From NCBI GenBank assembly GCA_947629305.1, contig CANRDD010000001.1, forward strand, positions 6,311 to 70,310: a stretch of DNA of 64,000 bases, given 5' to 3'. The position numbers and the translations under genes are program-made. This document shows, piece by piece, positions 6,251-62,362 of the stretch. Under the pieces are notes generated by a model that saw only the letters and a list, made by a program, of their open reading frames with translations, searched no databases and was not told the origin of the DNA. This DNA is from an uncultured Bacilli bacterium. GTDB lineage: Bacteria > Bacillota_I > Bacilli_A > RF39 > UBA660. Each line of letters starts with the position of its first letter. Position 1 is the first letter of the stretch.

Positions 6251-9200
6251 TTAATCTTTTTTTAAAGTTAATACTTTATTATCATCAGTTGCTATATCTA
6301 TCATAGTATCTAAAAAAACATTTATATTATCTTTATATATTAATAATACTTTTCTTGTTACATCTATTACTTCCGCGGGTTCTATATTTAAAAAGGATGA
6401 GATAGATTCCGTGGAAAAACATTTACCATCTATATATCCTAATTTTAAAGCAATAATAACCGCTTCTTTAACTGATAAAGTACTCATCATTTGCGTAAAT
6501 GATGGAGCTCTTAATAATTCTAATAATTTTAAAGAATCTTCTCTTGTCATCTCTATCTTTGTAAATTTTGATTCTATTTTAGGTTCTGTTTTAGATATTA
6601 AATCCCCATTTACTTGTTCTGTTTGAGACAATTCATTCTTAATCCTATTTTCTCTTTCCTTAGTTGAATTTTCTAATAACCTGCGCATTTTCGGTACTAA
6701 CGTATTATAAAACTTAGCACTTAATGTTCTATTTAATTTTGTTGAAACATGTTTATTTAAATCATCTCCATAACGAAGTCTTAATAATTCTTGATCATTT
6801 TCATTTAATTTGGTTAACATTTCATCTATTTGTTCTTTAGAATAATCTTCAAAATATTCATATATTGTTTTTATTGGTCCTTCTTTGGTAGGATTTTCTA
6901 ATAATCTGCGCATTCTTGGTACTAACATATTATAAAATTTATTACTTTGTTCTTTATTTAATTTGGTTGAAATAGGATTATTTAAATCATTACCATAACG
7001 AAGTTTTAATATTTCTTTTTCTTCTTCATTTAATTTGGTTAACATTTCATCTATTTGTTCTTTAGAATAATCTTCAAAATATTCATATATTGTTTTTATT
7101 GATCCTTCTTTAGTTGGATTTTCTAATAATCTTCGCATTCTTGGTAATAATGTACCATAAAATTTAATACTTTGTTCTTTATTTAATTCTGTTGAAATAG
7201 GCTTATTTAAATCATTACCATAACGAAGAGTCAACATTTCTTTTTCTTCTTCATTTAATTTGGTTAACATTTCATCTATTTGTTCTCTAGTATATGTTCC
7301 AAAATATTCATATATTGTCTTTATTTTTCGCACTTTTTCTTTTTTCCTTTCAACTATTTTTTCTTCATTTCCATTTATTTTTGATTCAGTTTCTATTCTT
7401 TTACTTTTATTTTTTCCTTTTCTTTCTTTTGTTGGATTCTTTAGTAATCGCTTCATTCGAGGAATTAATATATTATAAAATTTTATGCTTTGATCTTTAG
7501 TTAATTTTGTTGAAACAGGATTATTTAAATCTGCTCCATACCTAAGTCTTATTAATTCTTGATCTTCTTCATTTAATTTTAATATCACTTCATCTACTTC
7601 TTCTTTAGGATAGTCTTCAAAAAGTTCATATATTGTTTTTATTGTTCCTTCTCTAGTAGGATTTTCTAATAATCTTCGCATTCGAGAAATTAATAAACTA
7701 TAAAATTTTGTACTTTGGTCATTATTTAATTCTGTTAAAGCTGGATTATTTAAATCTTCTCCATAACGGAGCTTTAATATCTCTTTTTCTTCTTCATTTA
7801 ATCTTGTTATTACTTCATCTACTTGTTCTTTGGTATATGTTCCAAAATGTTCATATATTGTTTTTATTCTTCGAGGTTGTTCAGTTACATTCTCTTTCAT
7901 TTTTAAGCTATTTTCTTTTAAAGTAGCCCTTTTAGGATTATCTGTTTCTCTATAAATTGTTCTATATTTATCTATATTTTTTAAAGATAAATCGGGATAA
8001 GGTGTATATAAAGCTAAATCTTTAACATATTTTGACCATCTAATACGCATCAAAGCTGTGGCTTCAATTTGTTGGATTCTTTGTCTAGTTAAATGATATT
8101 TTTTACTTATTTCATTAAAAGTCATAGGTTTTTGATTATCAAACCCACATCGCATCTTTAATACTTCTATTTCCATTGGTTTCAAATTACAATTATCAAA
8201 TAAGTTTTGCACTATATCCGGCAAAGATTCATTTATAATTATTTCTTCAGGAGTCTCAGTTGAACTTGGTATTAAATTTTCTAACTCCGTGTCCTCTTCA
8301 TCATTAACAAAATTATTAATACTTACTGTATCAACTTGCAAATTAGATAATTCTGAAACAAATGAAACAGATAATCCCATTTCCTTAGCTATTTCATTTA
8401 TAGTTGGATTTCTACCTAATTTTTCTTCCAATTTAGTTATTGTTTTTTTATATAATGCTATCTTTTCATGCAAGTGCACGGGTATTCTTACATTTCGACC
8501 TTTATCCGCGATAGATCTAGTTATAGCTTGTCTTATCCACCATGTAGCATAGGTTGAAAATTTATAATTTTTATTTAAATCAAATCTATCTACCGCGGTC
8601 ATTAAACCAATGTTACCTTCTTGAACAAGATCTAAGAAAGAAAGGCCCCTTCCATAATATTTTCTAGCTATACTAATTACTAATCTTAAATTACTTTCAA
8701 TAAATAATTTTCTCGCATTATAATCACCTAGAGCCATTTTATTAAGAAGATCTTTTTCTTGTTCATCTGTGAGAAGTGGTCTTTTCCCAACTTCCCTAAA
8801 ATACATATCTGTGGCACTCATAACACCTAAATATTCTTCATCATAGGCATTTTCATTTACATTTTCTAATTCATTTATGTCAATATTATTTAACATACAA
8901 TATGTATCTATAATTGACTCTAATAAATTATCATTAAATTGTTCATCTACATTACCAGATTTTAATTGTTTATAATATTCTTTAAATACAACTATAATCA
9001 TTTTATTAAAAATACTATTTTCATTTATAAGTTTAATTAATAAATCTATACTTGGAACATAATTATAACTTTCTAAAAATCTACTTAATTTTTTAAAATT
9101 TTTGATTGCTCCTTCATAATTTTCTATTTTTATAAATTTTTGATTTATATAATTATTTAATAATATAAATGATTGATTTGCATCTAAAAGCATATTTTTA

Positions 9201-9433
9201 GTAATTTTAGCTATTTTAATTTTAATTTGTTTATTTATATATTCATTATAATTTGGTACACCTTTATATGTTTTTTTAGAAATATCAATTTCATTTAAAA
9301 CTAATTTTTCATAATCTTCCCTCGAAATATTTAAATACTTTGTCGATATATATATTTTATTAATAACAGGCATAATTATTTCATATATTTGTTTTGAATC
9401 TAATTCTTGAATATTATATAAATTTAATTCCAT
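6251..9433 (-). CDS. RpoD-family (group 1/2, SigA-like) sigma factor with unusual ~200-aa N-terminal domain and ~450-aa C-terminal extension of five tandem ~75-aa degenerate region-4-like repeats plus a terminal region-4-like domain
   Basis: Region 1.2 ([12 protein letters not shown]); region 2 ([17 protein letters not shown]...[19 protein letters not shown]); region 3; region 4.2 ([30 protein letters not shown]); then repeats [71 protein letters not shown] x5; C-terminal [45 protein letters not shown]. Confidence 0.85.
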
Positions 9434-9458
9434 TTATTTTCTCCTGTTCTAAAGATTA

Positions 9459-11006
9459 TTAATCTTTTTTTAAAGTTAATACTTTTTCTTTTCTTTTTTC
9501 TTCTGTAGCTATTTCTATTACATTATCTAAAAAACTATTTAATAATACTTTCTTTGTTATATCTATTACTTCTTCTGGTTCTATATTTAAAAAGGCCGAG
9601 ATAGATTTCGTGGAAAAACACCTGCCATCAATATACCCTAATCTTAAAGCTATAACTACGGCTTCTTTAACAGATAAAATCTTCATCAATTGAGCAAAGG
9701 ATGGTGCTTTTACTAAATCGATTAACTTCAAACAGTCTTCTTTAGTTATTTCAATATTATTAGTTTCTGATACTGTTTCTTTTTGCCCTAATTCTTCTTT
9801 AATTTCTAAAACTGGTTTCTTAACTTCTTTTTTAATTCTTTGTGTTCTTTTTCCTGTTGGATTTTCTAATAACTTCTTCATTCTTGGTACTAATACACTA
9901 TAAAATTTATTACTTTCTTCCTTAGTGAGTTTTGTTAAAACATGCTCATTTAAATCATCACCATACCTAAGTCTTATTAATTTCTTATCTTCTTCACTTA
10001 ATTTACTTAACATTTCATCTACTTGTTCTTTAGAATAATTATTAAAATGTTCATATATTGTTTTTAATTTTATTAAATTTGTATTTGGGTTTTTTAATAA
10101 TCTTTTCATTTTAGTTGCTAATAACCCATAGAATTTATAACTTTGTTCTTCTGTTAAATTGGTTGAAGATGAAATATTTAAATCTTCGCCAAAACGAAGT
10201 CTGATTAATTTCATCTCTTCTCCATTTAATTTTGTTAACATTTCATCTATTTGTTCTTTAGAATAATTTCCAAAATATTCATATATTGTATTAGCATTTC
10301 GTCTTTTTCTTTTGCCACTTTCAATTATATCTAATTCTATTATATCTTTATCCCTTAATTTTTCTCTTAATTCCTTAACTGTCTTGATAATTATTCGGGA
10401 AACATATGACTGAGAAATGTTTAACATCTCGGCAATTTCCTTTTGGTTATAAGTCCGATTATTATAAAAACCAAAATGAAGTTTAATGATTTTTTTACTT
10501 TTATCTGGTAATTCATTTATTAATTCTCTTAAAACTTGATAAAGATTAGATGTTTCATTATTATCTATATAATCACCTGCGAAGTCTTTACCATCACTAA
10601 GATAATCTTCCAACTTAATTTTACTACCATCACGATTTTGAAAAATAACTTTATCTAAACTTTCAATTTTCTTATCTTTATCTAATTTTCTTAAAAACAT
10701 TATTATTTCATTATCAATACATCTAGAAGCATAAGAAGAAAATCTAATATTTTTTGATATATCAAAAGTATCAACAGCTTTAAATAACCCTAAAATACCT
10801 ATAGATACTAATTCTTTTTTTTCATAATCAACTGTTTTAAATTTATTTGTTACTTCATATAAAACTAATCTAGTATTATGTTCTATTATTTTATTTCTTG
10901 CTTCATTATCACCATTTTGGGCTTGTTGAAGCAAATCACAAAATTCTTCATCAGATAATAATTTAGGTAATTTATGTCCATCTATAAATATTTCTTCTGT
11001 ACTCAT
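9459..11006 (-). CDS. SigE/SigK-family (sporulation-type, group 3) sigma factor paralog with C-terminal extension of two region-4-like repeats plus the same terminal domain as the upstream sigma
   Basis: LSDEEFCDLLQQAQNGDNEARNKIIEHNTRLVLYEVTNKF (region 2, SigK/E/G-like); YASRCIDNEIIMFLRKL; region 4 IIKLHFGFYNNRTYNQKEIAEMLNISQSYVSRII; then [22 protein letters not shown]...LIRLRFGEDLN repeats; C-terminus ~70% identical to that of the 1060-aa protein (both end VLTLKKD). Confidence 0.8.
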   Translation of the reverse strand: MSTEEIFIDGHKLPKLLSDEEFCDLLQQAQNGDNEARNKIIEHNTRLVLYEVTNKFKTVDYEKKELVSIGILGLFKAVDTFDISKNIRFSSYASRCIDNEIIMFLRKLDKDKKIESLDKVIFQNRDGSKIKLEDYLSDGKDFAGDYIDNNETSNLYQVLRELINELPDKSKKIIKLHFGFYNNRTYNQKEIAEMLNISQSYVSRIIIKTVKELREKLRDKDIIELDIIESGKRKRRNANTIYEYFGNYSKEQIDEMLTKLNGEEMKLIRLRFGEDLNISSSTNLTEEQSYKFYGLLATKMKRLLKNPNTNLIKLKTIYEHFNNYSKEQVDEMLSKLSEEDKKLIRLRYGDDLNEHVLTKLTKEESNKFYSVLVPRMKKLLENPTGKRTQRIKKEVKKPVLEIKEELGQKETVSETNNIEITKEDCLKLIDLVKAPSFAQLMKILSVKEAVVIALRLGYIDGRCFSTKSISAFLNIEPEEVIDITKKVLLNSFLDNVIEIATEEKRKEKVLTLKKD

Positions 11007-11038: not shown

Positions 11039-13684
11039 TTATTTCTTTTTTGGTAATAAAGATAAAACTAATTCCATATTATTATCATCTTTTCGATATT
11101 GATAAAATCTTTTATTTTTTCTTACTTCTTCTAATATTTTCTTTGTTTTTTCACTCTTATTTTTACTTTTTTCAACTGAATTTAAAAATATATCTCCTTT
11201 ATCATTAATTCCTTGCATATAAAATTCTCTTGCATAAATAAGTTTAATAATATTTGCCTCTTCTAAGGTTAAACCTAATTGCAGAGATGCTGTTTCAACA
11301 TCTAATCCTGATTCAATAATAAAGTCATTTATTTTTGGAAAATTAAAACCATAATAATTAACTAACTTATTATAATCAAAATCTTCTTCAAGCATTTTAA
11401 AGATAGGTTTTCGATCTTCTACATCTATTTCCCCTTTTAATGCCATGATAAGATCTTGATAATCATAAGGCAAATTTTCTTGTTTTGCTAAGCTATTGGC
11501 CACAGTTAAATATTCTATTGCTATTTTCTTTTGATATTTTTTCGTATAAGCAAAACCTAATTTAGCATAGACAATGGCTCGAGGACTTTTAAACATTTGT
11601 AGTAATTGTAAATATTTTTCTATGCATTCATTATAATTTCCTTCACTATAAGCTTTATTTCCTAAATTTATAAGTTCTTTACCATTAACATATCCTTGAA
11701 TTTTTGGTTTATATCTTAAAACTACTTGTTGTTCATTACCTTCACCAATTACAAAAGCAACCATATCCTTATAATTTTCCATCATATCCATTATTCTCTT
11801 AATTTTATTTTCAGGCATAGGATTTAATAAGATAATACTTTTTTTAACAAGTAATTCCGCATATTTTTTATCTATATATTTTTTTAAATTATCTTTTTCA
11901 GGAATCATTTCTTCTTTAGGTATTTCTGTTCTTTGTTCTTGAACTTGAATTTTTTCCTCTTGAGGTAACAAAACTTCTTCTTTTTCTTTCTTTGGTTCTT
12001 CTTTAATAGTAGGTTTTTGAATTCTAGTTCTTTCTTCTTTTTCTTTCTTTGGCTCTACTTTAGAAGCAAAATTTGGCAAACTAGCTCCATCCTTTTTTTG
12101 ATTATTTTCTAAAGCTATATTAAATATTTCTAATTCTTTATTATTTTGCTTATTATCTAACATTTTTTCTGATATTTCTAATATTTGATATAATCCATCT
12201 GTGATAACACAGTCTTGACCTAACTTATTACCTTTAGTAATTATATCTAAATAAACTCTTGCTTCAGCCAATTTATCTTGAGATAACTTAATATAAAATT
12301 CTTGAATATAGGTTGCTATATCAAAAGAATAATTATCTTTACTAACTAAAGTTAAGGCCATCATTGGTTTGGTAAAAGTAATATCTTTTTCTAATAAACT
12401 AATTTTAATTAAATCAATAATTAAAAATTCATAATCACTTTTATTTAAACTATTTAAATAAGTTCTTAAGAATTTTAAAGAATTTTCTAAATCACCTTTC
12501 ATTAAATATGTAATAATATTTGCCAAAGAAGGATCAGCCTTTTTTATTGTTGGTTCAGCTTCCTTAACCTTATTTTCTTTAACTGGATTATTTTCGAAAA
12601 TAGGCTTAGTTTTTTCCCTTAATTCTTGATTAGAATTATTTTCCAAGTTATTAATTGAACTTGTTTTTTGTTCCTTTTTAGCACTTTTTCTTATATTATT
12701 ACAACTATTAACTATTTCGACAAGTAACAAATAAATTGAATCATCATTACTAACCTTAAATTTAGCATTCTTTTTCTTAATTAAATCTAAAGCTAATTCA
12801 TAATTTTGGCCATCAATTGCATTAAAAAAATCATTAGTATTATATTCTTGAATTTCAGGAATAATTTTTGTTTTATTAATATTTAATAAATCTTTTGTTA
12901 AAATATAAACATAACTTTCGGAAATACTTAAACGATGCGAAGCTTCTCTTTTTTTATAAAAATCTATTATATCTTGATATTGTTTTTGTTTAATTAAATT
13001 TATGATTTCCTTTCGATTTTTATTTTGAACATCAAGGGCTTGGATAAGTAAATTCTTAATTAATAAATCTTGAACTTTAATAGATCCTTTATCTCGAATT
13101 AATTCATTTAATTGAAGAAGAGCTAATGAAAATCTTTGATTAAGAGCTGACAACCTCATTTTATTTTGCTTAGGTATATTCTCATATCTTTTATCATTAT
13201 AATCGACTCTAATATCATCATATTCTAAATATTTAGCATATTCTTGATATTTTTCAGGAATATCCGTGATCATATTTAATAAGTATAAATAATAATTACA
13301 ATCTATATTATAAAATTCATTTTCACTATCTTGAAAAATATCATAATAGACAAAAGCTTTCTTGTAATCTTTCTCATTAATACATTTTAAAAATAAACGA
13401 AAAGCTACCCCTTTGTGGCGTGGATCTAATTCAAAACATTTTTGAAAACATAAATCAGCTTTAGCATATTCTTTTTGAGCAATTAAAGTCTTTCCATAAT
13501 AAAATAAGTCATCTACTGATTTTAAAGAATATAAACCTCTTCTAACTCTTATAATTTTTTCTTGATCAATTAAATCTTTTAAATCTTTAGAATTAAAACC
13601 AAGACTATTTAATTCTTTAGTTGTTAATTCTTTTTCTTCTAAAACATTATTATATAATTTAGTTAAACTTTCTTCATTAATCAT
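11039..13684 (-). CDS. Large TPR-repeat protein with N-terminal AbiEi-like winged-helix DNA-binding domain
   Basis: N-terminus LTTKELNSLGFNSKDLKDLIDQEKIIRVRRGLYSL matches AbiEi_4-type wHTH signature (...RxRRGxY); multiple TPR-like helical repeats (e.g. YYGKTLIAQKEYAKADLCFQKCFELDP, LGNKAYSEGNYNECIEKYLQLLQM); Lys/Glu-rich linker; 4-bp overlap with upstream gene. Confidence 0.55.
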   Translation of the reverse strand: MINEESLTKLYNNVLEEKELTTKELNSLGFNSKDLKDLIDQEKIIRVRRGLYSLKSVDDLFYYGKTLIAQKEYAKADLCFQKCFELDPRHKGVAFRLFLKCINEKDYKKAFVYYDIFQDSENEFYNIDCNYYLYLLNMITDIPEKYQEYAKYLEYDDIRVDYNDKRYENIPKQNKMRLSALNQRFSLALLQLNELIRDKGSIKVQDLLIKNLLIQALDVQNKNRKEIINLIKQKQYQDIIDFYKKREASHRLSISESYVYILTKDLLNINKTKIIPEIQEYNTNDFFNAIDGQNYELALDLIKKKNAKFKVSNDDSIYLLLVEIVNSCNNIRKSAKKEQKTSSINNLENNSNQELREKTKPIFENNPVKENKVKEAEPTIKKADPSLANIITYLMKGDLENSLKFLRTYLNSLNKSDYEFLIIDLIKISLLEKDITFTKPMMALTLVSKDNYSFDIATYIQEFYIKLSQDKLAEARVYLDIITKGNKLGQDCVITDGLYQILEISEKMLDNKQNNKELEIFNIALENNQKKDGASLPNFASKVEPKKEKEERTRIQKPTIKEEPKKEKEEVLLPQEEKIQVQEQRTEIPKEEMIPEKDNLKKYIDKKYAELLVKKSIILLNPMPENKIKRIMDMMENYKDMVAFVIGEGNEQQVVLRYKPKIQGYVNGKELINLGNKAYSEGNYNECIEKYLQLLQMFKSPRAIVYAKLGFAYTKKYQKKIAIEYLTVANSLAKQENLPYDYQDLIMALKGEIDVEDRKPIFKMLEEDFDYNKLVNYYGFNFPKINDFIIESGLDVETASLQLGLTLEEANIIKLIYAREFYMQGINDKGDIFLNSVEKSKNKSEKTKKILEEVRKNKRFYQYRKDDNNMELVLSLLPKKK

Positions 13685-14682
13685 TTCTTTATTCCTCCCT
13701 TTAACCTTTTTAATTTTATTTGTTCATTTTTGGAAAAACCTTCTTTATCAAATTCATTTGATAAAGATACAGGATACATGGTAATAATATCTTTTGTTCC
13801 AAGCATCGTAACTACACATAAATCATTTGTAATTGTCTCATTTTTATAACCAATTGGTGTATCTAATCTAAATCGGTACATATCTGATACTTCAAAATGA
13901 TTTGCATTCATATTTTCAATTATTACTCTTGCATCTAATAATAATTTCTTTAAATCAAGATATTTAAAGAAACAACCATTGGTATTCTTTTCTTCTTGGT
14001 TTTGATGTTTTGCTATATGGAATAATAATAATTCTTCACTATGATCATATAATCTATATATCATATAATCTTTTTCTTTATCATAATTATTATCTAATAA
14101 CTTTAATTTTCCTAAATAATATTTTATATAATTATTTAAAATATCATAATGTTGTGTTAACTTTGGAGTTAAAGAAGACCTATCAATTTTCATAATATAT
14201 TGTTCAGCTTGATAAAAATCTTTTTCAAGTATTTTTAAACAAATTAAGCCTTTAGTTGCTTGAATATAAAACTTAGGATTTAATTGCAAAGTTTGATACA
14301 TTCTCTCAGCAATAGAATAATCACCAGTTTGCACATTAAGTTTAGCTAAAGCCATAAGAGCTTTATATTGTAATTCTGGGGAAGTCATACATTCCCTATA
14401 ATATTTTTTACTTTGTTCAAAATTATTTTCAATATTTTCTAATAAGCCATATAATAATTTAAATATAGGTTTATCTTGATCAGGATTATTATTTAATATT
14501 TCTCTAGCTTTTGCATATTTACCTTCTCTAAGTTCAATTTGAATAAGTTTTGTTAAAGACTGAACTCTAAAACCATCATGTTGATAAGATATATTAAACC
14601 AATATCTAGCATTTATATAATCATTAGTATTATAATATTCTAATCCTTTAAAAAAGGCTTCTTTTAAATCTTTATTTGTCAT
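13681..14682 (-). CDS. TPR-repeat protein (Rap/RRNPP-like size, 333 aa)
   Basis: Repeated TPR-like helices (FFKGLEYYNTNDYINARYWF, KALMALAKLNVQTGDYSIAERMYQ); translationally coupled (4-bp overlaps) on both sides. Confidence 0.5.
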   Translation of the reverse strand: MTNKDLKEAFFKGLEYYNTNDYINARYWFNISYQHDGFRVQSLTKLIQIELREGKYAKAREILNNNPDQDKPIFKLLYGLLENIENNFEQSKKYYRECMTSPELQYKALMALAKLNVQTGDYSIAERMYQTLQLNPKFYIQATKGLICLKILEKDFYQAEQYIMKIDRSSLTPKLTQHYDILNNYIKYYLGKLKLLDNNYDKEKDYMIYRLYDHSEELLLFHIAKHQNQEEKNTNGCFFKYLDLKKLLLDARVIIENMNANHFEVSDMYRFRLDTPIGYKNETITNDLCVVTMLGTKDIITMYPVSLSNEFDKEGFSKNEQIKLKRLKGGIKK

Positions 14683-15680
14683 CTTTTTAAAACCCGACTT
14701 AAATTTTCATAATATCCTTGATCATTAACTGAGGATAAATCCTGTACTTTTCCTTGATAATCATTTAAACAAAGACCATCAGGTGTAAAATAACATATTT
14801 GACAACATTTCATATCCGGATAAATTTTTAAAGGCATTGTTGTTTTAAGACCTAAATGCCAGTATCCTTTGTAGCCAGTGGAACCTAAGCCAGCTGAACA
14901 ATGGACATGTTCACCAAGTCTTCCTAAAGAACTTCGGCCATTTAAAACTGGGATTAAATTATAAGTTTCTGTCCATTCATTAGTTCTAGCCATATATATT
15001 TCATCAGGATATAAATAAAAACCATTGTCATTAATTTCTACTTCTTCAATAGGATTATTCTTTTTTAAATCTAAAACATTATCCCTAAAAAAAGCTATTC
15101 TTTTATTTAAAGTTAAATTAACAGAATTAGGATTAATAACAATATTATCTTTATTGGAAATAATAATATCTCCTTGTTCCATTCTCTTCATTATTTCTTT
15201 CCCACTTAACATACCTATATCTAAAGAATTATCTAAACTTCTAAAAAAAGCTAAATTACCTATTTCCATATTAGGATAAATATAAATAGGTTTAGTACAA
15301 GTAATACATAATAATAAATAATCATTAAAATGATCATCTTTATATTCATTATTAAGACTAATACTAATTCCAAGTAATGATAATGATACTTTGCCATTTA
15401 GAAAAGGAACAAAACCATTGGTTTTAACTTTTTGTTCTGTTTGGGCTAAATAAACTTTACCAGGTTCTAATAAAAAACCAGATTTAGGTATTTTTTCTTC
15501 TTTTAAACCATGGGTATAACCATTTTTAGTATCGACTAAATAATCATCTTCTTGATAATAAAGAGTATCACCTAAATTAAGACGACAACTATTAGGTTTA
15601 TCTAAAGAATTATCTTTTAAATTAGTTATTTCAATATGACCTAAAGCCATTTGTTTTTTTATTTCTTCATTTGTTAACAT
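14679..15680 (-). CDS. Tandem two-domain dCTP deaminase/dUTPase-fold protein (Dcd-Dcd fusion) with degenerate catalytic residues
   Basis: Both halves start with a Dcd N-terminal signature (LTNEEIKKQMALGHIEI...; LSGKEIMKRMEQGDIII...). Second half retains GRSSLGRLG (Ser/Ser/Arg motif) but has HLGL where the catalytic VLEF Glu is expected. First half lacks both motifs. Confidence 0.6.
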   Translation of the reverse strand: MLTNEEIKKQMALGHIEITNLKDNSLDKPNSCRLNLGDTLYYQEDDYLVDTKNGYTHGLKEEKIPKSGFLLEPGKVYLAQTEQKVKTNGFVPFLNGKVSLSLLGISISLNNEYKDDHFNDYLLLCITCTKPIYIYPNMEIGNLAFFRSLDNSLDIGMLSGKEIMKRMEQGDIIISNKDNIVINPNSVNLTLNKRIAFFRDNVLDLKKNNPIEEVEINDNGFYLYPDEIYMARTNEWTETYNLIPVLNGRSSLGRLGEHVHCSAGLGSTGYKGYWHLGLKTTMPLKIYPDMKCCQICYFTPDGLCLNDYQGKVQDLSSVNDQGYYENLSRVLKR

Positions 15681-15681
15681 A

Positions 15682-16218
15682 TTACTTTCTTCTTTCTAAT
15701 TTAGGAACATATTCTCTTTCAATCCGTGATTCTGTGGCTTTAACTTGTCCTAAATATTTACCCTTATATTCAATAGAATTATCCCCGATTAAAGGAAAAT
15801 AATATAAACGGCCGATAGGCATATTAGGATAAACTTTGGTTGGATAAGTGCAAACAATTTCAAGTGTCCATGTTCCTTCAAAACCATGATCACCAAATCC
15901 CGCGGTTACATGAATTTCCATGCCAAGAGCAGCTAGCTTATCAATACCACCTAGTAAAGGAACAAAATTATAAGTTTTAGTATATTCATTGGTTCTCCCT
16001 AAATATAATTTACCTGGCTCTAAAACTAAACCTTCTTCAGGAATAAGAATTTTTTGGGTAGGATTACTTTTCTTAATATCTAAAAAGGGTTCAGTATATA
16101 CTTTTAAATCATTAGCAAGTGTTACATTAAGATAATTTTCTCCTAACGTATCTTCATTTACTTTATAAATATCGATATTATGAGGATAATTAGCTATTAT
16201 TTCATTTCTACTTAACAT
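15682..16218 (-). CDS. dcd: dCTP deaminase (single dUTPase-fold domain)
   Basis: IHVTAGFGDHGFEGTWTLEIVCTYPTKVYPNMPIGRLYYF matches the Dcd core including the catalytic Glu (TLEI); the SSxR motif is replaced (GGIDKLAALG); 178 aa. Confidence 0.65.
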   Translation of the reverse strand: MLSRNEIIANYPHNIDIYKVNEDTLGENYLNVTLANDLKVYTEPFLDIKKSNPTQKILIPEEGLVLEPGKLYLGRTNEYTKTYNFVPLLGGIDKLAALGMEIHVTAGFGDHGFEGTWTLEIVCTYPTKVYPNMPIGRLYYFPLIGDNSIEYKGKYLGQVKATESRIEREYVPKLERRK

Positions 16219-16232: not shown

Positions 16233-17420
16233 TTAAATCTTTCTGGTTAAAGATATACCTTCTTTAAATTTACATTCAGATGGACAAGTAAAATTAGGAA
16301 ATGTACAACGAGATCCATGCGAATATTTAACTAATTCCGCATATATTTTTTGATCATTAGGGCTTTTTGATGCCTTTAAAGTATTAACATATTTTGTTAA
16401 TACTTCTTTTGTAATTTGCATAACTTCTAACTGAGGTGCTGTACAAATTCTTTCAAATAATTTTAAAATAAAATCTTCATATTTACCTGTTTCATTAACA
16501 TTTACGAGTAACCCTTGAGGATAATCCGATAAACTTGATATATCTTTTAACCATTCTTGGGATAAATAATCATTATCTCTAATAATAATTGGTACATAAT
16601 ATTCTTTTGTTTCTTTTAATGATAAAGAATAATCTAAAGTTCTATGTCTTAATAAATCGGCTAAAGCAACAAATGTCGCATCATAATTGACTGAGTAACT
16701 CCGGCTAAAGTGATCATCATAAGTATTATCATCTTGAATTAAAGAAAAATGTCTATTACGATAATCTTTAATATCTTGATCAATAAAACCTGTACTTAAT
16801 AAAGCCTTTTGAAACTCTTTTAAATAAGGCTTTAATTCTTGAATTAAAGGATTATTTGTATCTTCATTTAACATTTTAATTGTAAAATCATAAATATAAT
16901 TTAATTGTCTAAATGATGTTGTATATTTTAATTTAGTTCGCATAAATACTGACAACAAATAACGGGCATTTTCTTTAGCTTTTTTATCTATCATAGCTGG
17001 AGTTAAATAAACATTATCAGGATAAACCTTAGTTATTTCTTCTTTAAATATTTTATGCCATTTACGATATAATTCATTTTCTTCTTCTGTTCCAAACATT
17101 GTTGTATAACGTCCTGATTTTTCCGAAGTATTATATTCATGTTCATTATTAATCATCATCGCTAATAACTTGGGAATATTTTCAAAATATATTTGAATTG
17201 TATCATGCCCAAAGACCGAATGATGTCTATTTTTTTTATTACCATCTGCCCTATTTAACGTTTTTTCAATTGGTTCTTTTAATATTTCATCATAATTTTT
17301 AGCCGTATAACAAATATTTGCTGAATGTCCCCCGTTGATTTCTAAATCTTTTAAACTAGTTTCCTTGATTATTTCTTCATCTGTTGTAGTTATACCTACT
17401 ACTTTTGCATTTATTTCCAT
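16233..17420 (-). CDS. ThyX-like (flavin-dependent thymidylate synthase family) divergent paralog. RHR motif not conserved. Extra ~170-aa C-terminal region
   Basis: Alignable to the ThyX core: HHSVFGHD (cf. GHETPFEH) ... NNEHEYNTSEKSGRY (cf. FRHRIASYNELSGRY). SGRY is conserved but RHR reads NEH. Likely start MEINAKVVG at 17420 with GGAGG RBS; longer ORF to 17492 is possible. Confidence 0.5.
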   Translation of the reverse strand: MEINAKVVGITTTDEEIIKETSLKDLEINGGHSANICYTAKNYDEILKEPIEKTLNRADGNKKNRHHSVFGHDTIQIYFENIPKLLAMMINNEHEYNTSEKSGRYTTMFGTEEENELYRKWHKIFKEEITKVYPDNVYLTPAMIDKKAKENARYLLSVFMRTKLKYTTSFRQLNYIYDFTIKMLNEDTNNPLIQELKPYLKEFQKALLSTGFIDQDIKDYRNRHFSLIQDDNTYDDHFSRSYSVNYDATFVALADLLRHRTLDYSLSLKETKEYYVPIIIRDNDYLSQEWLKDISSLSDYPQGLLVNVNETGKYEDFILKLFERICTAPQLEVMQITKEVLTKYVNTLKASKSPNDQKIYAELVKYSHGSRCTFPNFTCPSECKFKEGISLTRKI

Positions 17421-17546
17421 TATTCCTCCCATAGCCCCCTTTTTAGTTCTAAATCTACTTAAAATTTTATCAAATATATCACTAAAAATCAATTCCCTTA
17501 GGAATTTTTTTCCAAAACTATTCCATAATAAAAAAGGTGATATCTT

Positions 17547-29280: not shown

Positions 29281-29607
29281 TTAATTATCCTTTCTTAAAA
29301 TATTTACTAAATCTTCTTCTAAATCTTTAAACTTTACCCCATTTGCTTCTCTCTTAATTATTATAATATAATTATAGTTATTTTTAAATAGTAACTTGTG
29401 TTTATCAACAATATTTCTAACTCTTCTTTTAAATTTATTTCTTTCAACAGCATTACCTAAACTTTTCCCAACAGCAAGACCAAAATGAGGTTTTTCTTCT
29501 TCTTTTTCTAAAGAAAATAGAAGAAAATACTTTCCTTTTCTTTTTATTCCTTTATTAATTATTTTATTAAAATCTTCATGTTTTTTAACCATTTCTGTTC
29601 TTTTCAT
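29281..29607 (-). CDS. rnpA: Ribonuclease P protein component
   Basis: KYFLLFSL...HFGLAVGKSLGNAVERNKFKRRVRN; 108 aa; follows rpmH. Confidence 0.85.
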   Translation of the reverse strand: MKRTEMVKKHEDFNKIINKGIKRKGKYFLLFSLEKEEEKPHFGLAVGKSLGNAVERNKFKRRVRNIVDKHKLLFKNNYNYIIIIKREANGVKFKDLEEDLVNILRKDN

Positions 29608-29623
29608 AACAATTACCTTTTTT

Positions 29624-29646
29624 TAAAAAAACCACTGTTAAAGTGG
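29624..29646 (-). terminator. Possible attenuator/terminator hairpin between rpmH and rnpA
   Basis: On minus strand CCACTttaacAGTGG followed by TTTTTTTT; short 5-bp stem. Confidence 0.3.
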
Positions 29647-29651
29647 CTTCA

Positions 29652-29774
29652 TTATTTGCAAAGTCTTTTACGACCTTTTTTGCGACGTGCGTTTAAAACA
29701 TCTGTTCCTTTACGAGCAAAAAAACCATGAGTTTTTGCTTGTTTTCTTTTATTAGGTTGATAAGTTCTTTTCAT
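29652..29774 (-). CDS. rpmH: 50S ribosomal protein L34
   Basis: Manual translation of minus strand: [40 protein letters not shown]; missing from ORF track because of short length. Confidence 0.9.
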
Positions 29775-29889
29775 TTTATAATTCTCCTCTTTCTCTTTAA
29801 GCGTTATTAATATATCATTAACTAGTCCTAAAAGTCAAGTTAAATTGGTTTATTTTATTAATATATAATAAGGATAAAAAGGTATTATT

Positions 29890-30070
29890 GGGGATTGTGG
29901 ATAAAATGTGGATAACTATCAACACAATTAACAACATTAAACCAACAACATGTTTATAACTTATGGCATATGGGGATACTGTTAGTTTAACAATTGGGGA
30001 TTTTGTTGATATATGGCTTTTTTTAAGCTTTTAAGGCTAATTCAATTGGGGATAACTCTGGGGATAATTA
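29890..30070. promoter_or_regulatory. oriC DnaA-box cluster upstream of dnaA
   Basis: Two perfect TGTGGATAA boxes (29896-29904, 29907-29915) plus degenerate boxes tGGGGATAc (29971), tGGGGATAA (30047, 30060) in the rpmH-dnaA intergenic region. Confidence 0.8.
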
Positions 30071-30136
30071 TTTTTATCAATTTTTTCTTTTCTTTTTAAA
30101 AATTTTATATTACAATTTATATAGACAGGTAGTGGG

Positions 30137-31510
30137 GTGAGGTTTAACTTGAAGACAAGCACTCAAGAGTTATTCAACAAATTTTTAACAGAAATAGCAA
30201 GTAAAGTATCACAAAATGCTTATGTTATTTGGTTTTCGCAACTTGAACCTCTATCGATAAATAATGATGTATTTACGATAAAAGTCCCAATGGAAGTTCA
30301 TAAACAAATCTTAAGTGAAACTTATCATGATACAATAGATGCCATCTTTTTTTCCTTAACAGGAATAAATTATACCTTTAAATATGTAACAGAAGAGGAA
30401 ATAGAAGTTACGCCAGAAGTAACTTTGCCTGAATTACCTCAGGTAAAAAAAGAAGAAGAATGGGATACTCATTTAAAAAAAGAATATACTTTTGATAACT
30501 ATGTGGTTGGTAACTCCAATAGATTAGCTTTTATTGCCGCTAGGGCGGTAGCGGAGGCTCCAGGCACAATTCATAATCCTTTGTTTATCTATGGACGAAG
30601 TGGTCTTGGCAAAACCCATTTGATGCATGCCATTGGTAATTACATTACGGAAAATAGTAATAAAAAAGTTTTATATACAACAAGTAATGAATATCGAAAT
30701 GACTTCACGGGTATTGCTTCCATTAACAATGGTGTTAGTAAAATGAATTATGCTAACGAGTTTAAAAATAAATACCGAAATGTGGATGTTTTAATTATTG
30801 ATGATATTCAGTTTTTAACTGATGCAGAGAAAACCCAACAAGAATTTTTTCATACCTTTAATGAACTTCATCAAGCTAATAAACAGATAATTATTAGTAG
30901 TGATCGAAGTCCTGATGATTTAAAGAAAATAGAGGAAAGACTTAGAAGTCGTTTTATGTGGGGATTACCTGTGGATATTTATCCACCTGATTTTAATCTA
31001 AGATGTGATATTATAAGAGCAAAAATTAAAAATACAAGTATTGAAAATAAATTAAATTCTGATGTTATTGAATATATTGCTAATTCTTGTGTTAATGATG
31101 TTAGGCATATTGAAGGAACTATTAGAAGATTACTTGCTTATACAGCCATGATGGTTCCCGATAAAATAACTTTAGACTTTGCCATTGAAGCATTAAAAGA
31201 TTATGTTAATACCAATATATATATCAACAATTCGATAGCTTCAATTCAAAATGCTGTGGCCGAATATTTCAAAATATCAGTAGAAGATTTAAAAGGGAAA
31301 AGAAGAACAAATAATGTTGTTAGACCAAGGCATATTGCTATGTATTTATGCCGAGTGGAAACTGATGAACCTCTTATTAAAATAGGGCTTGAGTTTGGAG
31401 GAAGAGATCATTCCACTGTATCAACAGCGATAGATAAAATAAAAGAAGAATTAGAGACTGATGATAACTTGAATAAAATGTTGAAAGAAATAAAACATAA
31501 GTTACAATAA
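30137..31510 (+). CDS. dnaA: Chromosomal replication initiator protein DnaA
   Basis: AAA+ Walker A GRSGLGKTHL; Walker B VLIIDDIQF; C-terminal DNA-binding domain (HSTV...); GTG start at 30137 or TTG at 30149. Confidence 0.95.
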   Translation: MRFNLKTSTQELFNKFLTEIASKVSQNAYVIWFSQLEPLSINNDVFTIKVPMEVHKQILSETYHDTIDAIFFSLTGINYTFKYVTEEEIEVTPEVTLPELPQVKKEEEWDTHLKKEYTFDNYVVGNSNRLAFIAARAVAEAPGTIHNPLFIYGRSGLGKTHLMHAIGNYITENSNKKVLYTTSNEYRNDFTGIASINNGVSKMNYANEFKNKYRNVDVLIIDDIQFLTDAEKTQQEFFHTFNELHQANKQIIISSDRSPDDLKKIEERLRSRFMWGLPVDIYPPDFNLRCDIIRAKIKNTSIENKLNSDVIEYIANSCVNDVRHIEGTIRRLLAYTAMMVPDKITLDFAIEALKDYVNTNIYINNSIASIQNAVAEYFKISVEDLKGKRRTNNVVRPRHIAMYLCRVETDEPLIKIGLEFGGRDHSTVSTAIDKIKEELETDDNLNKMLKEIKHKLQ

Positions 31511-40100: not shown

Positions 40101-40103
40101 AAT

Positions 40104-40182
40104 GATGTGCAACAAGGATGCTGTAAACTGGTCAGAATCGGAAGATAGCAGCCACATCAGCCTCTGCTTGTGTGCACTTTTT
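40104..40182 (+). ncRNA. ffs: Small signal recognition particle RNA (4.5S/scRNA-like, ffs/scr)
   Basis: GC-rich hairpin GTGCAACAAGG...CTGCTTGTGTGCAC. Apical region GGTCAGAATCGGAAGATAGCAGCC matches the SRP RNA domain IV consensus (GUCAGGUCCGGAAGGAAGCAGC). Ends in TTTTT. Lies in the tadA-dnaX neighbourhood where scr sits in Bacillus. Confidence 0.6.
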
Positions 40183-40195
40183 ATATGGTGATAAA

Positions 40196-51609: not shown

Positions 51610-51658
51610 CCTCTTGCACAAATAAAAACTTTATGCTAAACTAAATTATAAGTTGACA

Positions 51659-51850
51659 GAGAAAAAGAGAAAATAATTTTATTTCTTTTCTAGAGAGTTA
51701 ATGGTTGGTGAAAATTAACAAGAAAAAAATTATGGATGGGCTTTGGAGTTAACTAGCTAAATGAGCTTTATAACATTAAAGAGCATGATTTATCATGAAA
51801 TAAGGTGGTACCGCGGATTTAATTCGTCCTTATCTTATTTCATGATTTTT
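51659..51850 (+). promoter_or_regulatory. T-box riboswitch leader (probable Met specifier) with intrinsic terminator, upstream of the HAD-metG operon
   Basis: Stem I with AGAGA element (ctAGAGAGttaatgg); candidate specifier AUG in aaauuAUGGaug; T-box motif AGGTGGTACCGCGG (51803-51818); terminator atcatgaaataagg/ccttatcttatttcatgat + TTTTT (51792-51850). Confidence 0.7.
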
Positions 51851-51867
51851 ATTTGGGAGGTGATAAT

Positions 51868-52488
51868 TTGGTTAAAGCCATAATATTTGATTTAGATAAT
51901 ACCTTAATTGATTGGAAAGATGAATATATTAATTCATTAAAATATGTTTTAAAAGATTATCATTTAAGTAATGATTCTATTTTAAAAATAGATGATATTT
52001 TAAATAATTTAGAAAAGATAGATGAAAAATTAAATATTAATAAAGTAATAAATTATATTAATAAGACTTTAAATTTAAAATTAACTTCTAATTTTTTAGA
52101 AGAATTAATTATAAAACAAGGTAAATGTTATGAAGATGATCTTGTTCTTAGAGAAACAATTAAATATTTATCTTCAAAATATGATTTATATGTGATGAGT
52201 AATTGGTTTACAAAGACTCAAAAAATACGTTTAGCTAATTTAAAAATATTAGAATATTTTAAGGATATTAAAGGGGCAGATCAAAATTATTATAAACCAG
52301 ATAAAAGAGCATATGAATTTATTTTAACTAAATATAAACCTGAAGAATGTCTTTTTATTGGCGATGATTTAGAAATTGATATTAAACCAGCTTTAGAACT
52401 TGGAATGCAAGTTATTTGGAAAACAAAAGAAAATAGTTTAGAATATCAAACTATTAAAGAAATAAAAGAATTAAAAAATATATTATAA
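51868..52488 (+). CDS. HAD-superfamily hydrolase
   Basis: Motif I FDLDNTLID; TTG start 51868 after GGGAGG RBS (the ORF-track start at 51853 would lie inside the T-box terminator). Confidence 0.65.
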   Translation: MVKAIIFDLDNTLIDWKDEYINSLKYVLKDYHLSNDSILKIDDILNNLEKIDEKLNINKVINYINKTLNLKLTSNFLEELIIKQGKCYEDDLVLRETIKYLSSKYDLYVMSNWFTKTQKIRLANLKILEYFKDIKGADQNYYKPDKRAYEFILTKYKPEECLFIGDDLEIDIKPALELGMQVIWKTKENSLEYQTIKEIKELKNIL

Positions 52489-57772: not shown

Positions 57773-58789
57773 ATGGATTATGAAAAAATAGCTAATTTTA
57801 TCCAAAGTAACCGAAGGAAAATGGGGTTAACCCAAGAAGAACTCGCGGATTTAATTCCCATTGGCCGTGGTGCAGTCAGTAAATGGGAAAGAGCTATAAC
57901 TATCCCAGATCCTTTAGTTTTATTAAAATTAAGTGAAATATTTAATGTTAGTATTAATGAAATATTATTAGGTGAAAAAATAAATAATCATAATAAAGAA
58001 GAACTTAATAAAATAACACTAAGTCTTTTTAATAGTATTAATAATAGTAAAAAAAGAATTAAAATATTATTAATAAGTATCTTAATTATCTTATTTTTAT
58101 TTTTTAGTTATTATTTTTTTAATTCTTATAAACAAGTTAAAATATATACAATTAATACAAATAACGATTATTTTAAAATAGAAGATGCGTTATTTATTTA
58201 TACAAGAAATAAAAGTTATTTTAAAATAGGTAAATTACATATTAATAATAATTCTGTCATTATGACTAATGTTGGTATTTATTATAAAGATCAAGATCAA
58301 AAAGAACATTTATTATTTAGTATAAATGGGGATGAAGATATCGTTTATGTTGATTTAAATAATAAAATATTTAAGAAAAAAAATTTAAAACAAATATTAA
58401 ATAATATGTATATAAGATTAATTTATAATGAAGTATTAGAAAAATCATTTAAATTATATTTAGAAGAAGATTATATTAATAAAGAATTATTTAATAAAGT
58501 TAATAATCAAAATATAGAATTTAAAGATTTATTTTTAATGAATAAAGAATATTATATAAATTATATTAAAACTAAATTATATCAAAATAAAAATAATTGT
58601 TTTTATCAAGATCAAGATTTTAAATTTAATTATTTAAATAATTATATTGAATTAATAAATAAGGAAGAAAAATGGCAATATGATGTAATAAATAATAAGT
58701 TATTATTAGAAAAGAATAATAAAATAAAAGAATGTTCTAATAATTGTTCTAATTATTTTTATATAAAATTAGAAGAAGCTTTAACTTAA
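57773..58789 (+). CDS. Membrane-anchored XRE-family HTH regulator (HTH_3 N-domain, single TM, large C-terminal domain)
   Basis: MDYEKIANFIQSNRRKMGLTQEELADLIPIGRGAVSKWERA; TM KILLISILIILFLFFSYYFF; start ATG 57773 with GGTGA RBS (ORF extends upstream to 57740). Confidence 0.65.
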   Translation: MDYEKIANFIQSNRRKMGLTQEELADLIPIGRGAVSKWERAITIPDPLVLLKLSEIFNVSINEILLGEKINNHNKEELNKITLSLFNSINNSKKRIKILLISILIILFLFFSYYFFNSYKQVKIYTINTNNDYFKIEDALFIYTRNKSYFKIGKLHINNNSVIMTNVGIYYKDQDQKEHLLFSINGDEDIVYVDLNNKIFKKKNLKQILNNMYIRLIYNEVLEKSFKLYLEEDYINKELFNKVNNQNIEFKDLFLMNKEYYINYIKTKLYQNKNNCFYQDQDFKFNYLNNYIELINKEEKWQYDVINNKLLLEKNNKIKECSNNCSNYFYIKLEEALT

Positions 58790-58860
58790 GATGAGCTTAT
58801 AAAGTCCTTTCTTTTTTTAATATTAAAGATTAATCTAAAGTTAGGAAAGGAGGGATATAT

Positions 58861-59718: not shown

Positions 59719-59759
59719 AGAAAATAACTATGTTATAATTTAGTCAAGGTGGTAAAGAA

Positions 59760-62306: not shown

Positions 62307-62362
62307 ACTATAGTGAAAAATTTTACTAAATATATAAAAATATTTCAGTATAATTATGCTAG

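What the first reader, a model, noticed from the sequence alone, without database searches (positions are those of the whole stretch)
14679..16218. Possible split heteromeric dCTP deaminase: single-domain Dcd retaining the catalytic Glu plus a fused two-domain Dcd-like protein retaining the Ser-Ser-x-Arg motif
Dcd/dUTPase-fold enzymes are homotrimers whose active sites are built at subunit interfaces from residues of different chains. Here three jelly-roll domains are encoded as 1 + 2. The 178-aa protein keeps the catalytic E (TWTLEI) but has GGIDKLAALG where KSSLARLG is expected. The second half of the 333-aa fusion keeps GRSSLGRLG but has HLGL in place of VLEF. Its first half has lost both motifs. 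The losses are complementary. A pseudo-trimer of one single-domain and one tandem chain would therefore have reduced active-site multiplicity. This could be a regulated or repurposed dCTP deaminase/dUTPase, for example for nucleotide-pool control.
Basis: inference. Interest (0 to 1): 0.6.

Follow-up and report, generated by a model that had tools for sequence, protein, structure and literature searches.

The report
Split three-domain dCTP deaminase
Two adjacent genes encode one plus two copies of the dCTP-deaminase fold. Each chain keeps only half of the catalytic site, so together they probably form a three-domain ring with one working site, in a family so far described only as rings of three identical subunits.

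Summary
The 178-aa protein (15682-16218, minus strand) keeps the base-binding hairpin, the catalytic Glu (TWTLEI) and the C-terminal lid, but has lost the Arg-Ser-Ser…Arg motif. The C-terminal domain of the 333-aa protein (14679-15680, minus strand) keeps GRSSLGR and the motif IV Gln, but has Gly for the Glu and Ser for the hairpin Asp. Its N-terminal domain has lost both sets.

The pattern is family-wide: Glu is 121/121 in the single-domain family and R-S-S…R is 121/121 in the tandem family. In all six split lineages examined (window included) the single-domain gene sits directly upstream of the tandem gene, while other neighbours differ. At least three lineages have fused all three domains into one protein.

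AlphaFold2 gives compact three-domain models (pTM 0.88 for a natural fusion, 0.86 for the window pair joined end to end). Consecutive domains superpose on the solved tandem deaminase 2R9Q but not on EBV dUTPase. That polarity puts the Glu half-site against the RSS…R half-site.

No paper found describes a heteromeric dCTP deaminase. Verdict: a probably housekeeping heteromeric deaminase with one composite active site, a new variant of a known enzyme. Assembly and activity are inferred, not shown.

The parts
15682..16218 (-). Gene for domain D1 (178 aa). Single Dcd-fold chain that supplies the base-side half-site.
   Evidence: ORF. PF22769 E 1.5e-23; TIGR02274 scores 60.7 bits, below its 92.8 cut-off. 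RBS-like AGGAAG lies upstream of the ATG.
15856..15912 (-). D1 motif III hairpin and catalytic Glu: HVTAGFGDHGFEGTWTLEI (aa 103-121; Asp110, Glu120).
   Evidence: Aligned to E. coli H121-F139. Mean column conservation is 97% in 121 sequences, with Asp and Glu 121/121. Coordinates verified.
15724..15768 (-). D1 C-terminal lid: YKGKYLGQVKATESR (aa 151-165), equivalent to E. coli K178, Y179, Q182, S188 and R189.
   Evidence: Y, G, K, Y and Q are invariant or nearly so in the family. Aligns to the M. tuberculosis tail SKYQGQRGPTPSR.
15922..15951 (-). D1 degenerate motif II: GGIDKLAALG (family consensus SGLEELAALG). No Arg/Ser/Ser/Arg.
14679..15680 (-). Gene for the tandem chain (333 aa), domains D2 + D3. 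Its ATG lies 1 nt after the D1 stop (TAAtATG). Its TGA overlaps the ATG of the next gene (ATGA).
   Evidence: ORF; junctions read. PF22769 matches twice, E 1.6e-48.
15213..15680 (-). D2 (aa 1-156). Catalytically dead Dcd-fold domain: motif II is NGKVSLSLLG (15369-15398), the Glu position is Cys (family: Ser), and there is no C-terminal lid.
   Evidence: As a phmmer query against 1.84 billion representatives it finds only 11 clusters at E<=1e-30.
14682..15212 (-). D3 (aa 157-333). Supplies the phosphate-side half-site: NPNSVNLTLNK (15102-15134), NGRSSLGRLG (14913-14942) and the motif IV CQ in DMKCCQICY (14790-14816). Its own motif III, HCSAGLGSTGYKGYWHLGL (14847-14903), lacks the Asp and the Glu.
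   Evidence: R, S, S and R are 121/121. The Glu position is Gly in 110, otherwise Ala or Ser.
16233..17492 (-). Upstream gene of the same co-directional gene string: a long-form flavin-dependent thymidylate synthase (ThyX). The likely start is the ATG at 17420. It would consume the dUMP produced downstream of the deaminase.
   Evidence: Pfam Thy1 E 4e-12. It belongs to a family of about 395-aa proteins that NCBI names FAD-dependent thymidylate synthase in Erysipelotrichales, Clostridia and Bacilli MAGs. The adjacency to the Dcd pair was not seen in any other locus examined.

Best explanation
The two genes encode the two chains of a heteromeric dCTP deaminase. One 178-aa chain (D1) and one 333-aa chain (D2-D3) assemble 1:1 into a ring of three dUTPase-fold domains that mimics the usual Dcd homotrimer.

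Only one of the three inter-domain pockets is catalytic. D1 gives the base-side half: the motif III hairpin with Asp110, the water-activating Glu120 and the C-terminal lid with its Lys/Tyr/Gln. D3 gives the phosphate-side half: the NPNS motif I region, Arg249-Ser250-Ser251...Arg254 of motif II, and the motif IV Gln.

The pocket between D3 and D2 is degenerate but still strongly conserved. The pocket between D2 and D1 is the least conserved.

The enzyme most likely makes dUTP or, more probably, dUMP from dCTP for thymidylate synthesis. In this window it would feed the adjacent ThyX.

Shown: the fold, the motif distribution, family-wide conservation, gene linkage, natural fusions and confident compact models.

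Inferred: the physical assembly of the split chains, the polarity of the ring, the activity and the product.
For: 1. Complementary half-sites, in the window and in 121+121 homologues. Mean column conservation is 97% for the D1 base side and 89-92% for the D3 phosphate side. It is 63-77% for the remaining motifs of D1 and D2 and the D3 C-terminal tail.
2. Superfamily architecture. [quoted passage not shown] EBV monomeric dUTPase keeps exactly one such set across two domains (PMC12524310).
3. Gene linkage. The single-domain gene lies immediately upstream of the tandem gene, abutting or overlapping, in the window, L001, L002-5, L007-8, L009-10 and L011. The other neighbours differ. About 33 single/tandem pairs share a longest-contig length.
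4. Natural fusions in the order D1-linker-D2-D3 occur in three lineages. Each lineage's closest relatives are split-type proteins: P0002; P0013; and P0029/P0033/P0058.
5. AF2 models. Natural fusion P0002: pLDDT 86.1, pTM 0.88, with only the linker disordered. Window D1+D2D3 joined end to end: pLDDT 85.1, pTM 0.86.
6. Polarity. Consecutive model domains superpose on the solved tandem DCD 2R9Q (TMt 0.70-0.73, rmsd 3.7-4.8 A, 341-361 columns). They do not superpose on EBV dUTPase (TMt 0.32-0.35, rmsd 8-11 A). In the 2R9Q sequence the N-domain holds motifs I/II/IV and the C-domain holds motif III, the Glu and the tail. So each later domain's motif III faces the earlier domain's motif II. Ring closure then pairs D1 motif III with D3 motif II.
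7. Housekeeping context. The window spans oriC (dnaA, dnaN, gyrBA), ThyX is adjacent and there is no PADLOC match.
8. By profile search the nearest solved relatives are the bifunctional dUMP-forming enzymes: M. jannaschii 7e-16 and B. halodurans 1e-15, against E. coli 3e-5.
Against: - There is no direct evidence that the separate chains bind each other. AlphaFold-multimer was not available, so the window pair was modelled as an artificial end-to-end fusion.
- Model coordinates could not be inspected, so the distance from Glu120 (D1) to Ser250/Arg254 (D3) was never measured.
- The polarity argument is indirect. It assumes that the intrachain interface of 2R9Q is its active site. No paper on 2R9Q was found.
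- D1's part of the AF2 alignment was only 6 rows deep.
- No activity data exist. The assignment of S111/R115 and E138 to different chains in Dcd rests on homology to dUTPase motifs, and on my recollection of Johansson et al. 2005 that the Dcd site is built from two subunits.
- Whether these genomes also carry a canonical dcd or dut is unknown.
Confidence: 0.75

Rival explanations
1. The three-domain ring forms, but with the opposite polarity. D1's Glu pocket faces D2's degenerate motif II, and D3's RSS...R faces D2's dead motif III. No pocket then has the full canonical catalytic set. The complex would be a nucleotide-binding or regulatory protein, or would use altered chemistry (for example dUTPase only).
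For: Polarity was inferred only indirectly. D2's motif II keeps a conserved Lys/Arg, and in about 60% of sequences a Ser at the S112-equivalent position. EBV dUTPase shows that tandem fusions can have N(motif III)->C(motif II) polarity.
Against: Both half-sites are invariant (121/121 for Glu, Asp and R-S-S...R). That is hard to explain if they never meet. Both models fit 2R9Q and not EBV. D1 alone keeps the lid residues that act together with motif III.
Confidence: 0.1
2. The two proteins act separately. The 178-aa protein forms its own homotrimer and the tandem protein forms its own oligomer. One or both are non-catalytic pseudoenzymes, or bind other ligands.
For: Each chain is a complete Dcd-fold protein. 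Homotrimers are the only described state of Dcd (PMC10733785).
Against: Neither chain alone has a full catalytic set. Gene linkage is strict across lineages. There are three independent triple fusions. The three-domain models are compact and confident.
Confidence: 0.08
3. It is an anti-phage or mobile-element dCTP-depleting deaminase rather than a housekeeping enzyme.
For: dCTP deaminases are used in nucleotide-depletion defence (my own knowledge of Tal et al. 2022). The 881-aa protein downstream in the same gene string has an AbiEi-like HTH.
Against: Neither Dcd chain has a PADLOC match. There is no kinase or other sensor domain. The locus lies in the oriC-proximal core genome. In relatives the pair sits among housekeeping genes such as ValRS and Lon, and the TPR/AbiEi-like genes are absent there.
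Confidence: 0.03

Closest known systems
Homotrimeric dCTP deaminase and bifunctional dCTP deaminase-dUTPase (E. coli 1XS1; M. tuberculosis 2QLP/2QXX; M. jannaschii 1OGH; B. halodurans 4XJC)
   Same: Same fold (PF22769; Foldseek TMt 0.7-0.86 per domain). Same catalytic residue set (Ser/Arg of motif II, Asp and Glu after motif III, C-terminal Lys/Tyr/Gln lid). The chemistry is presumably the same.
   Different: Those enzymes are three identical chains with three identical sites and dTTP-linked cooperativity. Here there are three different domains on two chains. The catalytic set is complete only in trans and in only one of the three pockets. The 178-aa chain falls below the TIGR02274 cut-off.
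Tandem 2'-deoxycytidine 5'-triphosphate deaminase of Proteobacteria (Pfam PF06559 + PF22769, NCBIfam NF005734/PRK07559; PDB 2R9Q)
   Same: A two-domain Dcd chain whose domains pack like neighbouring subunits. It is the best structural match to both models (TMt 0.70-0.73). It also shows complementary degeneration of half-sites.
   Different: In 2R9Q the two halves are N-domain motifs I/II/IV and C-domain motif III + Glu + tail. They can complete one site within a single chain. In the window's tandem chain that intrachain pocket is degenerate, and the intact phosphate-side half needs a third domain encoded separately. Sequence relationship is marginal: NF005734 scores 13.7 bits against a 283 cut-off, neither phmmer nor a profile search finds 2R9Q, and hhalign gives E 0.005.
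Monomeric herpesvirus dUTPase (EBV 2BSY; PRV 8ZWQ)
   Same: Duplication of the fold, followed by loss of redundant motifs, leaves a single composite active site between two domains.
   Different: It is a dUTPase, not a deaminase. It is a single chain of two fold domains plus a small third. The polarity is opposite (motif III in the first domain). It is viral. The models do not superpose on it as a two-domain unit (TMt 0.32-0.35).
Single-chain pseudo-heterotrimeric dUTPases (Drosophila virilis; engineered covalent human dUTPase trimers)
   Same: Three dUTPase-fold domains form one trimer-like body, as in the natural triple fusions P0002, P0029 and P0033.
   Different: Those keep all five motifs, and three active sites, in nearly identical repeats. 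Here the domains are diverged (about 30% identical), only one site survives, and most lineages encode the ring as 1+2 chains.

Membership tests
dCTP deaminase / DCD-DUT (PF22769, TIGR02274) | dUTPase-like jelly-roll fold that matches the DCD profile | tested here: met
   PF22769 E 1.5e-23 (178 aa) and 1.6e-48 (333 aa, two stretches). Foldseek matches to Dcd chains have TMt 0.7-0.86.
dCTP deaminase / DCD-DUT (PF22769, TIGR02274) | Each subunit carries the full catalytic set (E. coli S111, R115, D128, E138) | tested here: not met
   No domain has the full set. D1 has the Asp and Glu only, D3 has Ser/Ser/Arg only, and D2 has none. The set is complete only across the two chains.
dCTP deaminase / DCD-DUT (PF22769, TIGR02274) | Score above the curated equivalog cut-off (TIGR02274, 92.8 bits) | tested here: inconclusive
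   The 178-aa chain scores 60.7 bits (fails). The 333-aa chain scores 124.8 bits summed over two domains (passes).
dCTP deaminase / DCD-DUT (PF22769, TIGR02274) | Homotrimeric quaternary structure | not testable with these tools
   Fusions and AF2 models point to a hetero pseudo-trimer. No multimer prediction or experiment was available.
dCTP deaminase / DCD-DUT (PF22769, TIGR02274) | Catalyses dCTP -> dUTP (or dUMP + PPi + NH3) | not testable with these tools
   Needs an enzyme assay.
Tandem 2'-deoxycytidine 5'-triphosphate deaminase (PF06559 DCD_N + PF22769; NF005734) | Match to the full-length family model | tested here: not met
   NF005734 scores 13.7 bits against a 283 cut-off. PF06559 scores exactly at its cut-off (21.4 bits, E 2.5e-4), over aa 2-85 only.
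Tandem 2'-deoxycytidine 5'-triphosphate deaminase (PF06559 DCD_N + PF22769; NF005734) | The N-domain keeps motifs I/II/IV and the C-domain keeps motif III + Glu + tail, so the site is self-sufficient within one chain | tested here: not met
   In the 333-aa chain the N-domain motif II is degenerate and the C-domain lacks the Asp and Glu. The 2R9Q pattern was read.
Tandem 2'-deoxycytidine 5'-triphosphate deaminase (PF06559 DCD_N + PF22769; NF005734) | Two Dcd-fold domains packed like adjacent trimer subunits | tested here: met
   Foldseek against 2R9Q: TMt 0.70-0.73 over 341-361 columns.
Anti-phage dCTP deaminase (nucleotide-depletion defence) | Match to PADLOC defence models; fused sensor or kinase domain; defence-island context | tested here: not met
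   No PADLOC match at E<=0.01. There are no extra domains. The locus lies in an oriC-proximal core context.
Monomeric herpesvirus-type dUTPase | [quoted passage not shown] | tested here: not met
   The polarity is opposite and the two-domain superposition is poor (TMt 0.32-0.35, rmsd 8-11 A). The deaminase Glu/Ser/Arg set is present instead.

The most novel reading that the evidence does not exclude
After the catalytic set collapsed into one pocket, the intrachain D3-D2 pocket became a dedicated non-catalytic nucleotide sensor, for example for dTTP. It is still 88% (D3 side) and 72-77% (D2 side) conserved, has lost the Asp, Glu and Arg115 equivalents, and sits where the 2R9Q active site sits. 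The ring would then be a natural enzyme with separate catalytic and regulatory sites, derived from three identical sites. In homotrimeric Dcd, by contrast, dTTP competes in the active site and acts cooperatively through the central channel.
Probability: 0.25. Interest if true: 0.72.

Novelty: new variant of a known kind. Interest (0 to 1): 0.6.

Why it matters
dCTP deaminases, and the dUTPase superfamily in cells generally, are textbook homotrimers with three shared active sites. Their cooperativity and dTTP feedback are attributed to that symmetry.

A natural obligate hetero-assembly (1+2 chains, or one fused chain) with a single composite site would be new for the deaminase branch in three ways:
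- It would be the first heteromeric member.
- It would be a bacterial counterpart of the herpesvirus 'monomeric' dUTPase.
- It would be a ready-made asymmetric system for asking what the other two sites are for. So far that question has only been approached with engineered covalent dUTPase trimers (PMC4827122).

It is also a clean example of complementary degeneration that locks paralogous chains into an obligate complex, with repeated gene fusion as independent confirmation.

There is a practical consequence. The tandem chain is annotated as 'hypothetical protein' or 'dCTP deaminase', and the small chain falls below the curated cut-off. Pathway reconstructions for these uncultured gut Bacillota could therefore miscall dTMP synthesis.

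Tried and rejected
- Paired MSA.
- Adding the 60-120 single-domain homologues to the fusion alignment. MAFFT placed them on domain 3 or produced a 999-column alignment, so D1 had only 6 rows in the alignments actually used (A4, A5).
- The search for related loci on genome contigs with the single protein returned only one locus. Context had to come from the look-up of encoding contigs.
- Sequence searches do not connect the family to 2R9Q: phmmer with the N-domain and a profile of the family found nothing. hhalign against the S. meliloti homologue is marginal (E 0.005). Common ancestry of the two tandem families is therefore unresolved.
- Ten 300-430-aa hits of the N-domain search were canonical Dcd fusions, not PRK07559 proteins.
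- The promoter/terminator scan is uninformative in this AT-rich DNA: 53 sites found against 55 expected.
- thyX-dcd linkage as a family feature is rejected. ThyX is absent next to the pair in other lineages, and the pair is absent next to ThyX homologues.
- A separate-gene 1+1+1 arrangement was considered. The one 177-aa N-domain-only hit (P0245) ends abruptly inside the next domain and looks truncated.
- Literature searches for heterotrimer, tandem, pseudo-trimer, heteromeric or pseudoenzyme together with 'dCTP deaminase', and for 2R9Q, found nothing relevant. PMC2732909 is not held.
Full report
**What is there**

The minus strand of the window carries a tightly packed gene string:
- a ThyX-like gene (16233-17492);
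- a 178-aa Dcd-like gene (15682-16218);
- a 333-aa gene with two Dcd-like domains (14679-15680);
- two TPR proteins (13681-14682 and 11039-13684).

The junctions are short. An AGGAAG lies before the 178-aa ATG. TAAtATG joins the two Dcd genes. ATGA joins the tandem gene to the first TPR gene. An HMM of the single-domain family finds exactly three Dcd-fold domains in the 64 kb.

The window is the chromosomal origin region of a roughly 25% GC member of the Bacillota. The GC skew changes sign at about 30 kb. dnaA, dnaN, gyrB, gyrA, mnmE, mnmG and parB are present, as are a T-box and the SRP RNA. The closest named relatives of its proteins come from 'Bacilli bacterium', 'Erysipelotrichales bacterium' and 'uncultured Mycoplasma sp.' MAGs.

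**Checking the observation**

I aligned the domains to E. coli Dcd and to the M. tuberculosis, M. jannaschii and B. halodurans enzymes.

| Element | D1 (178 aa) | D2 (333 aa, N-half) | D3 (333 aa, C-half) |
|---|---|---|---|
| Motif II (E. coli DGRSSLARLG) | GGIDKLAALG, lost | NGKVSLSLLG, lost | NGRSSLGRLG, kept |
| Motif III hairpin Asp | kept (HVTAGFGDHGF) | lost | Ser |
| Catalytic Glu | kept (TWTLEI) | Cys | Gly |
| Motif IV Gln | Arg | Asn | kept (CQ) |
| C-terminal lid | kept (Y-x-G-K-Y-x-x-Q...S-R) | absent | partial (Tyr, Gly and Gln kept; Lys and Tyr lost) |

D3 also keeps an NPNS motif I region. D1 holds the whole base-side half-site and D3 holds the whole phosphate-side half-site.

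**It is a family, not a decaying paralogue**

Both proteins have many homologues. I examined 121 sequences of each family.
- In the single-domain family, the D1 hairpin-to-Glu stretch averages 97% column identity. Asp and Glu are 121/121. Its motif II is (S/A)G(L/T)(E/D)ELA, with no Arg or Ser.
- In the tandem family, D3 has R, S, S and R at 121/121. Its Glu position is Gly in 110 sequences and Ala or Ser in the rest, never Glu. Its hairpin Asp position is Ser or Ala in 119 of the 121.
- D2 has Leu for Arg115 and Ser/Thr/Asn/Cys for the Glu.

A phmmer search with D2 against 1.84 billion cluster representatives gives only 11 clusters at E<=1e-30. This is a compact clade embedded in ordinary Dcd diversity.

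**Linkage and fusion**

In the window and in every other split locus retrieved, the single-domain gene lies immediately upstream of the tandem gene, abutting or overlapping it. That is six split lineages in all: the window, L001, L002-5, L007-8, L009-10 and L011. All other neighbours differ: ValRS, ABC transporters, Lon/Spo0A, a phosphatase.

In at least three lineages the three domains are a single polypeptide in the order D1-linker-D2-D3. These are P0002 (532 aa), P0013, and the P0029/P0033/P0058 clade. Each lineage's nearest relatives are split-type proteins (60-67% identical) rather than the other fusions (43-50%). The reading frames are continuous in the contigs. Repeated fusion of the same three domains in the same order is strong evidence that they work as one unit at 1:1 stoichiometry.

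**Structure**

AF2 on the natural fusion P0002 gives pLDDT 86.1 and pTM 0.88, with only the 24-residue linker disordered. The window's two proteins joined end to end give pLDDT 85.1 and pTM 0.86. These pTM values mean the relative placement of the three domains is predicted with confidence.

Foldseek against the PDB puts the A. tumefaciens tandem deaminase 2R9Q first for both models (TMt 0.70-0.73, 341-361 columns, rmsd 3.7-4.8 A). Single Dcd and DCD-DUT chains follow. The two-domain EBV dUTPase aligns over its full length but superposes badly (TMt 0.32-0.35, rmsd 8-11 A).

**Which pocket is the active one?**

I could not read model coordinates, so I used the two natural two-domain relatives as rulers.

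[quoted passage not shown] I recovered the 2R9Q sequence through a Sinorhizobium homologue. It shows the reverse order:
- The N-domain keeps QPASLDLRLG, NPKSSTGRLD and LSQIRF, but has a degenerate hairpin.
- The C-domain keeps HYAGFFDPGF, AVLEV and the SNYQAQG tail, but has lost motif II.

So 2R9Q pairs C(motif III) with N(motif II). The models match 2R9Q and not EBV. In them, therefore, each later domain presents motif III to the earlier domain's motif II: D2 to D1 and D3 to D2. Closing the ring pairs D1's motif III, Glu and lid with D3's RSS...R.

This agrees with the conservation ranking of the three pockets:
- site 1: 97% (D1 base side) and 89-92% (D3 phosphate side);
- site 2: 88% (D3 base side) and 72-77% (D2 phosphate side);
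- site 3: 65% (D2 base side) and 70-76% (D1 phosphate side).

The argument is indirect. It assumes that the intrachain interface of 2R9Q is its active site.

**Function**

The deaminase-specific residues survive, in trans. The family profile matches the bifunctional dUMP-forming enzymes best: M. jannaschii 7e-16 and B. halodurans 1e-15, against E. coli 3e-5. The neighbouring gene in the window is a long-form ThyX, of a type common in Bacillota.

The most likely role is the housekeeping supply of dUMP or dUTP for thymidylate synthesis. The thyX linkage is specific to this lineage. Nothing suggests defence: there is no PADLOC match, no sensor domain and the context is core genome.

**Comparison with the known and novelty**

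The fold and presumed chemistry are those of Dcd. The defining 'full catalytic set in each of three identical subunits' is not met, so this is not a conventional member.

It resembles the 2R9Q-type tandem enzyme in domain packing. It fails that family's model (13.7 bits against a 283 cut-off), and its intrachain pocket is degenerate. It resembles herpesvirus monomeric dUTPase in evolutionary logic, but not in chemistry, polarity or chain count.

Papers in the held library describe dCTP deaminases as homotrimers. None found describes a heteromeric or split one. Databases call the tandem chain 'hypothetical protein' or 'dCTP deaminase'.

I class it as a new variant of a known kind, with moderate-to-high specialist interest.

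**Limits**

Assembly of the separate chains, the position of the active site and the activity are all inferred. The alignment depth for D1 in the AF2 runs was only 6 rows. Polarity rests on superposition statistics rather than inspected coordinates. The rest of the genome is unseen, so a canonical dcd or dut elsewhere cannot be excluded.

Noticed in passing
window 16233-17492 (-): This is a long-form ThyX. It is 419 aa from the TTG start, or more likely about 395 aa from the ATG at 17420. The Pfam Thy1 match covers aa 57-199 only, and RHRTLDYS does not come until aa 282, which implies an insertion of about 80 aa. It scores below the TIGR02170 cut-off and has no PDB sequence match. It belongs to a large family of about 395-aa proteins in Erysipelotrichales, Clostridia and Bacilli MAGs.
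   Followed up: partly
window 11039-14682 (-): Two TPR-repeat proteins (333 aa and 881 aa) are joined to the tandem Dcd gene and to each other by ATGA overlaps. The 881-aa protein has an AbiEi-like HTH at its N-terminus (Pfam PF13338; PADLOC AbiEi 5.6e-8). They are not found next to the Dcd pair in other lineages.
   Followed up: partly
window 6251-11006 (-): Two oversized sigma-70-like proteins. One is 1060 aa, with regions 2, 3 and 4 plus a second region-4-like stretch and a FakA-like C-terminal hit. The other is 515 aa.
   Followed up: no
window ~29300-31510: Replication origin region. The GC skew changes sign and gene orientation flips. dnaA (30137-31510) is followed by dnaN, gyrB and gyrA. 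mnmE, mnmG and parB lie on the other side.
   Followed up: partly
window 51650-51834 (+) and 40101-40186 (+): A T-box leader (106.5 bits) lies upstream of the ORF at 51853-52488. The small SRP RNA is also present.
   Followed up: no
window 58000-64000: GC content drops to 19-20%, against about 25% elsewhere in the window.
   Followed up: no
L012 2480-3577 (S. meliloti homologue of PDB 2R9Q): The only solved tandem dCTP deaminase itself shows complementary half-site loss. Its N-domain keeps motifs I/II/IV and its C-domain keeps motif III, the Glu and the tail. This is the opposite order to EBV dUTPase. I found no paper that discusses this structure.
   Followed up: partly
Tandem family, D3 motif III (window 14847-14903): The catalytically dead hairpin of D3 (HCSAGMGSIGYKGYWHMG) is 88% conserved, far more than the dead hairpin of D2 (65%). 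A purely structural role may not explain this.
   Followed up: partly
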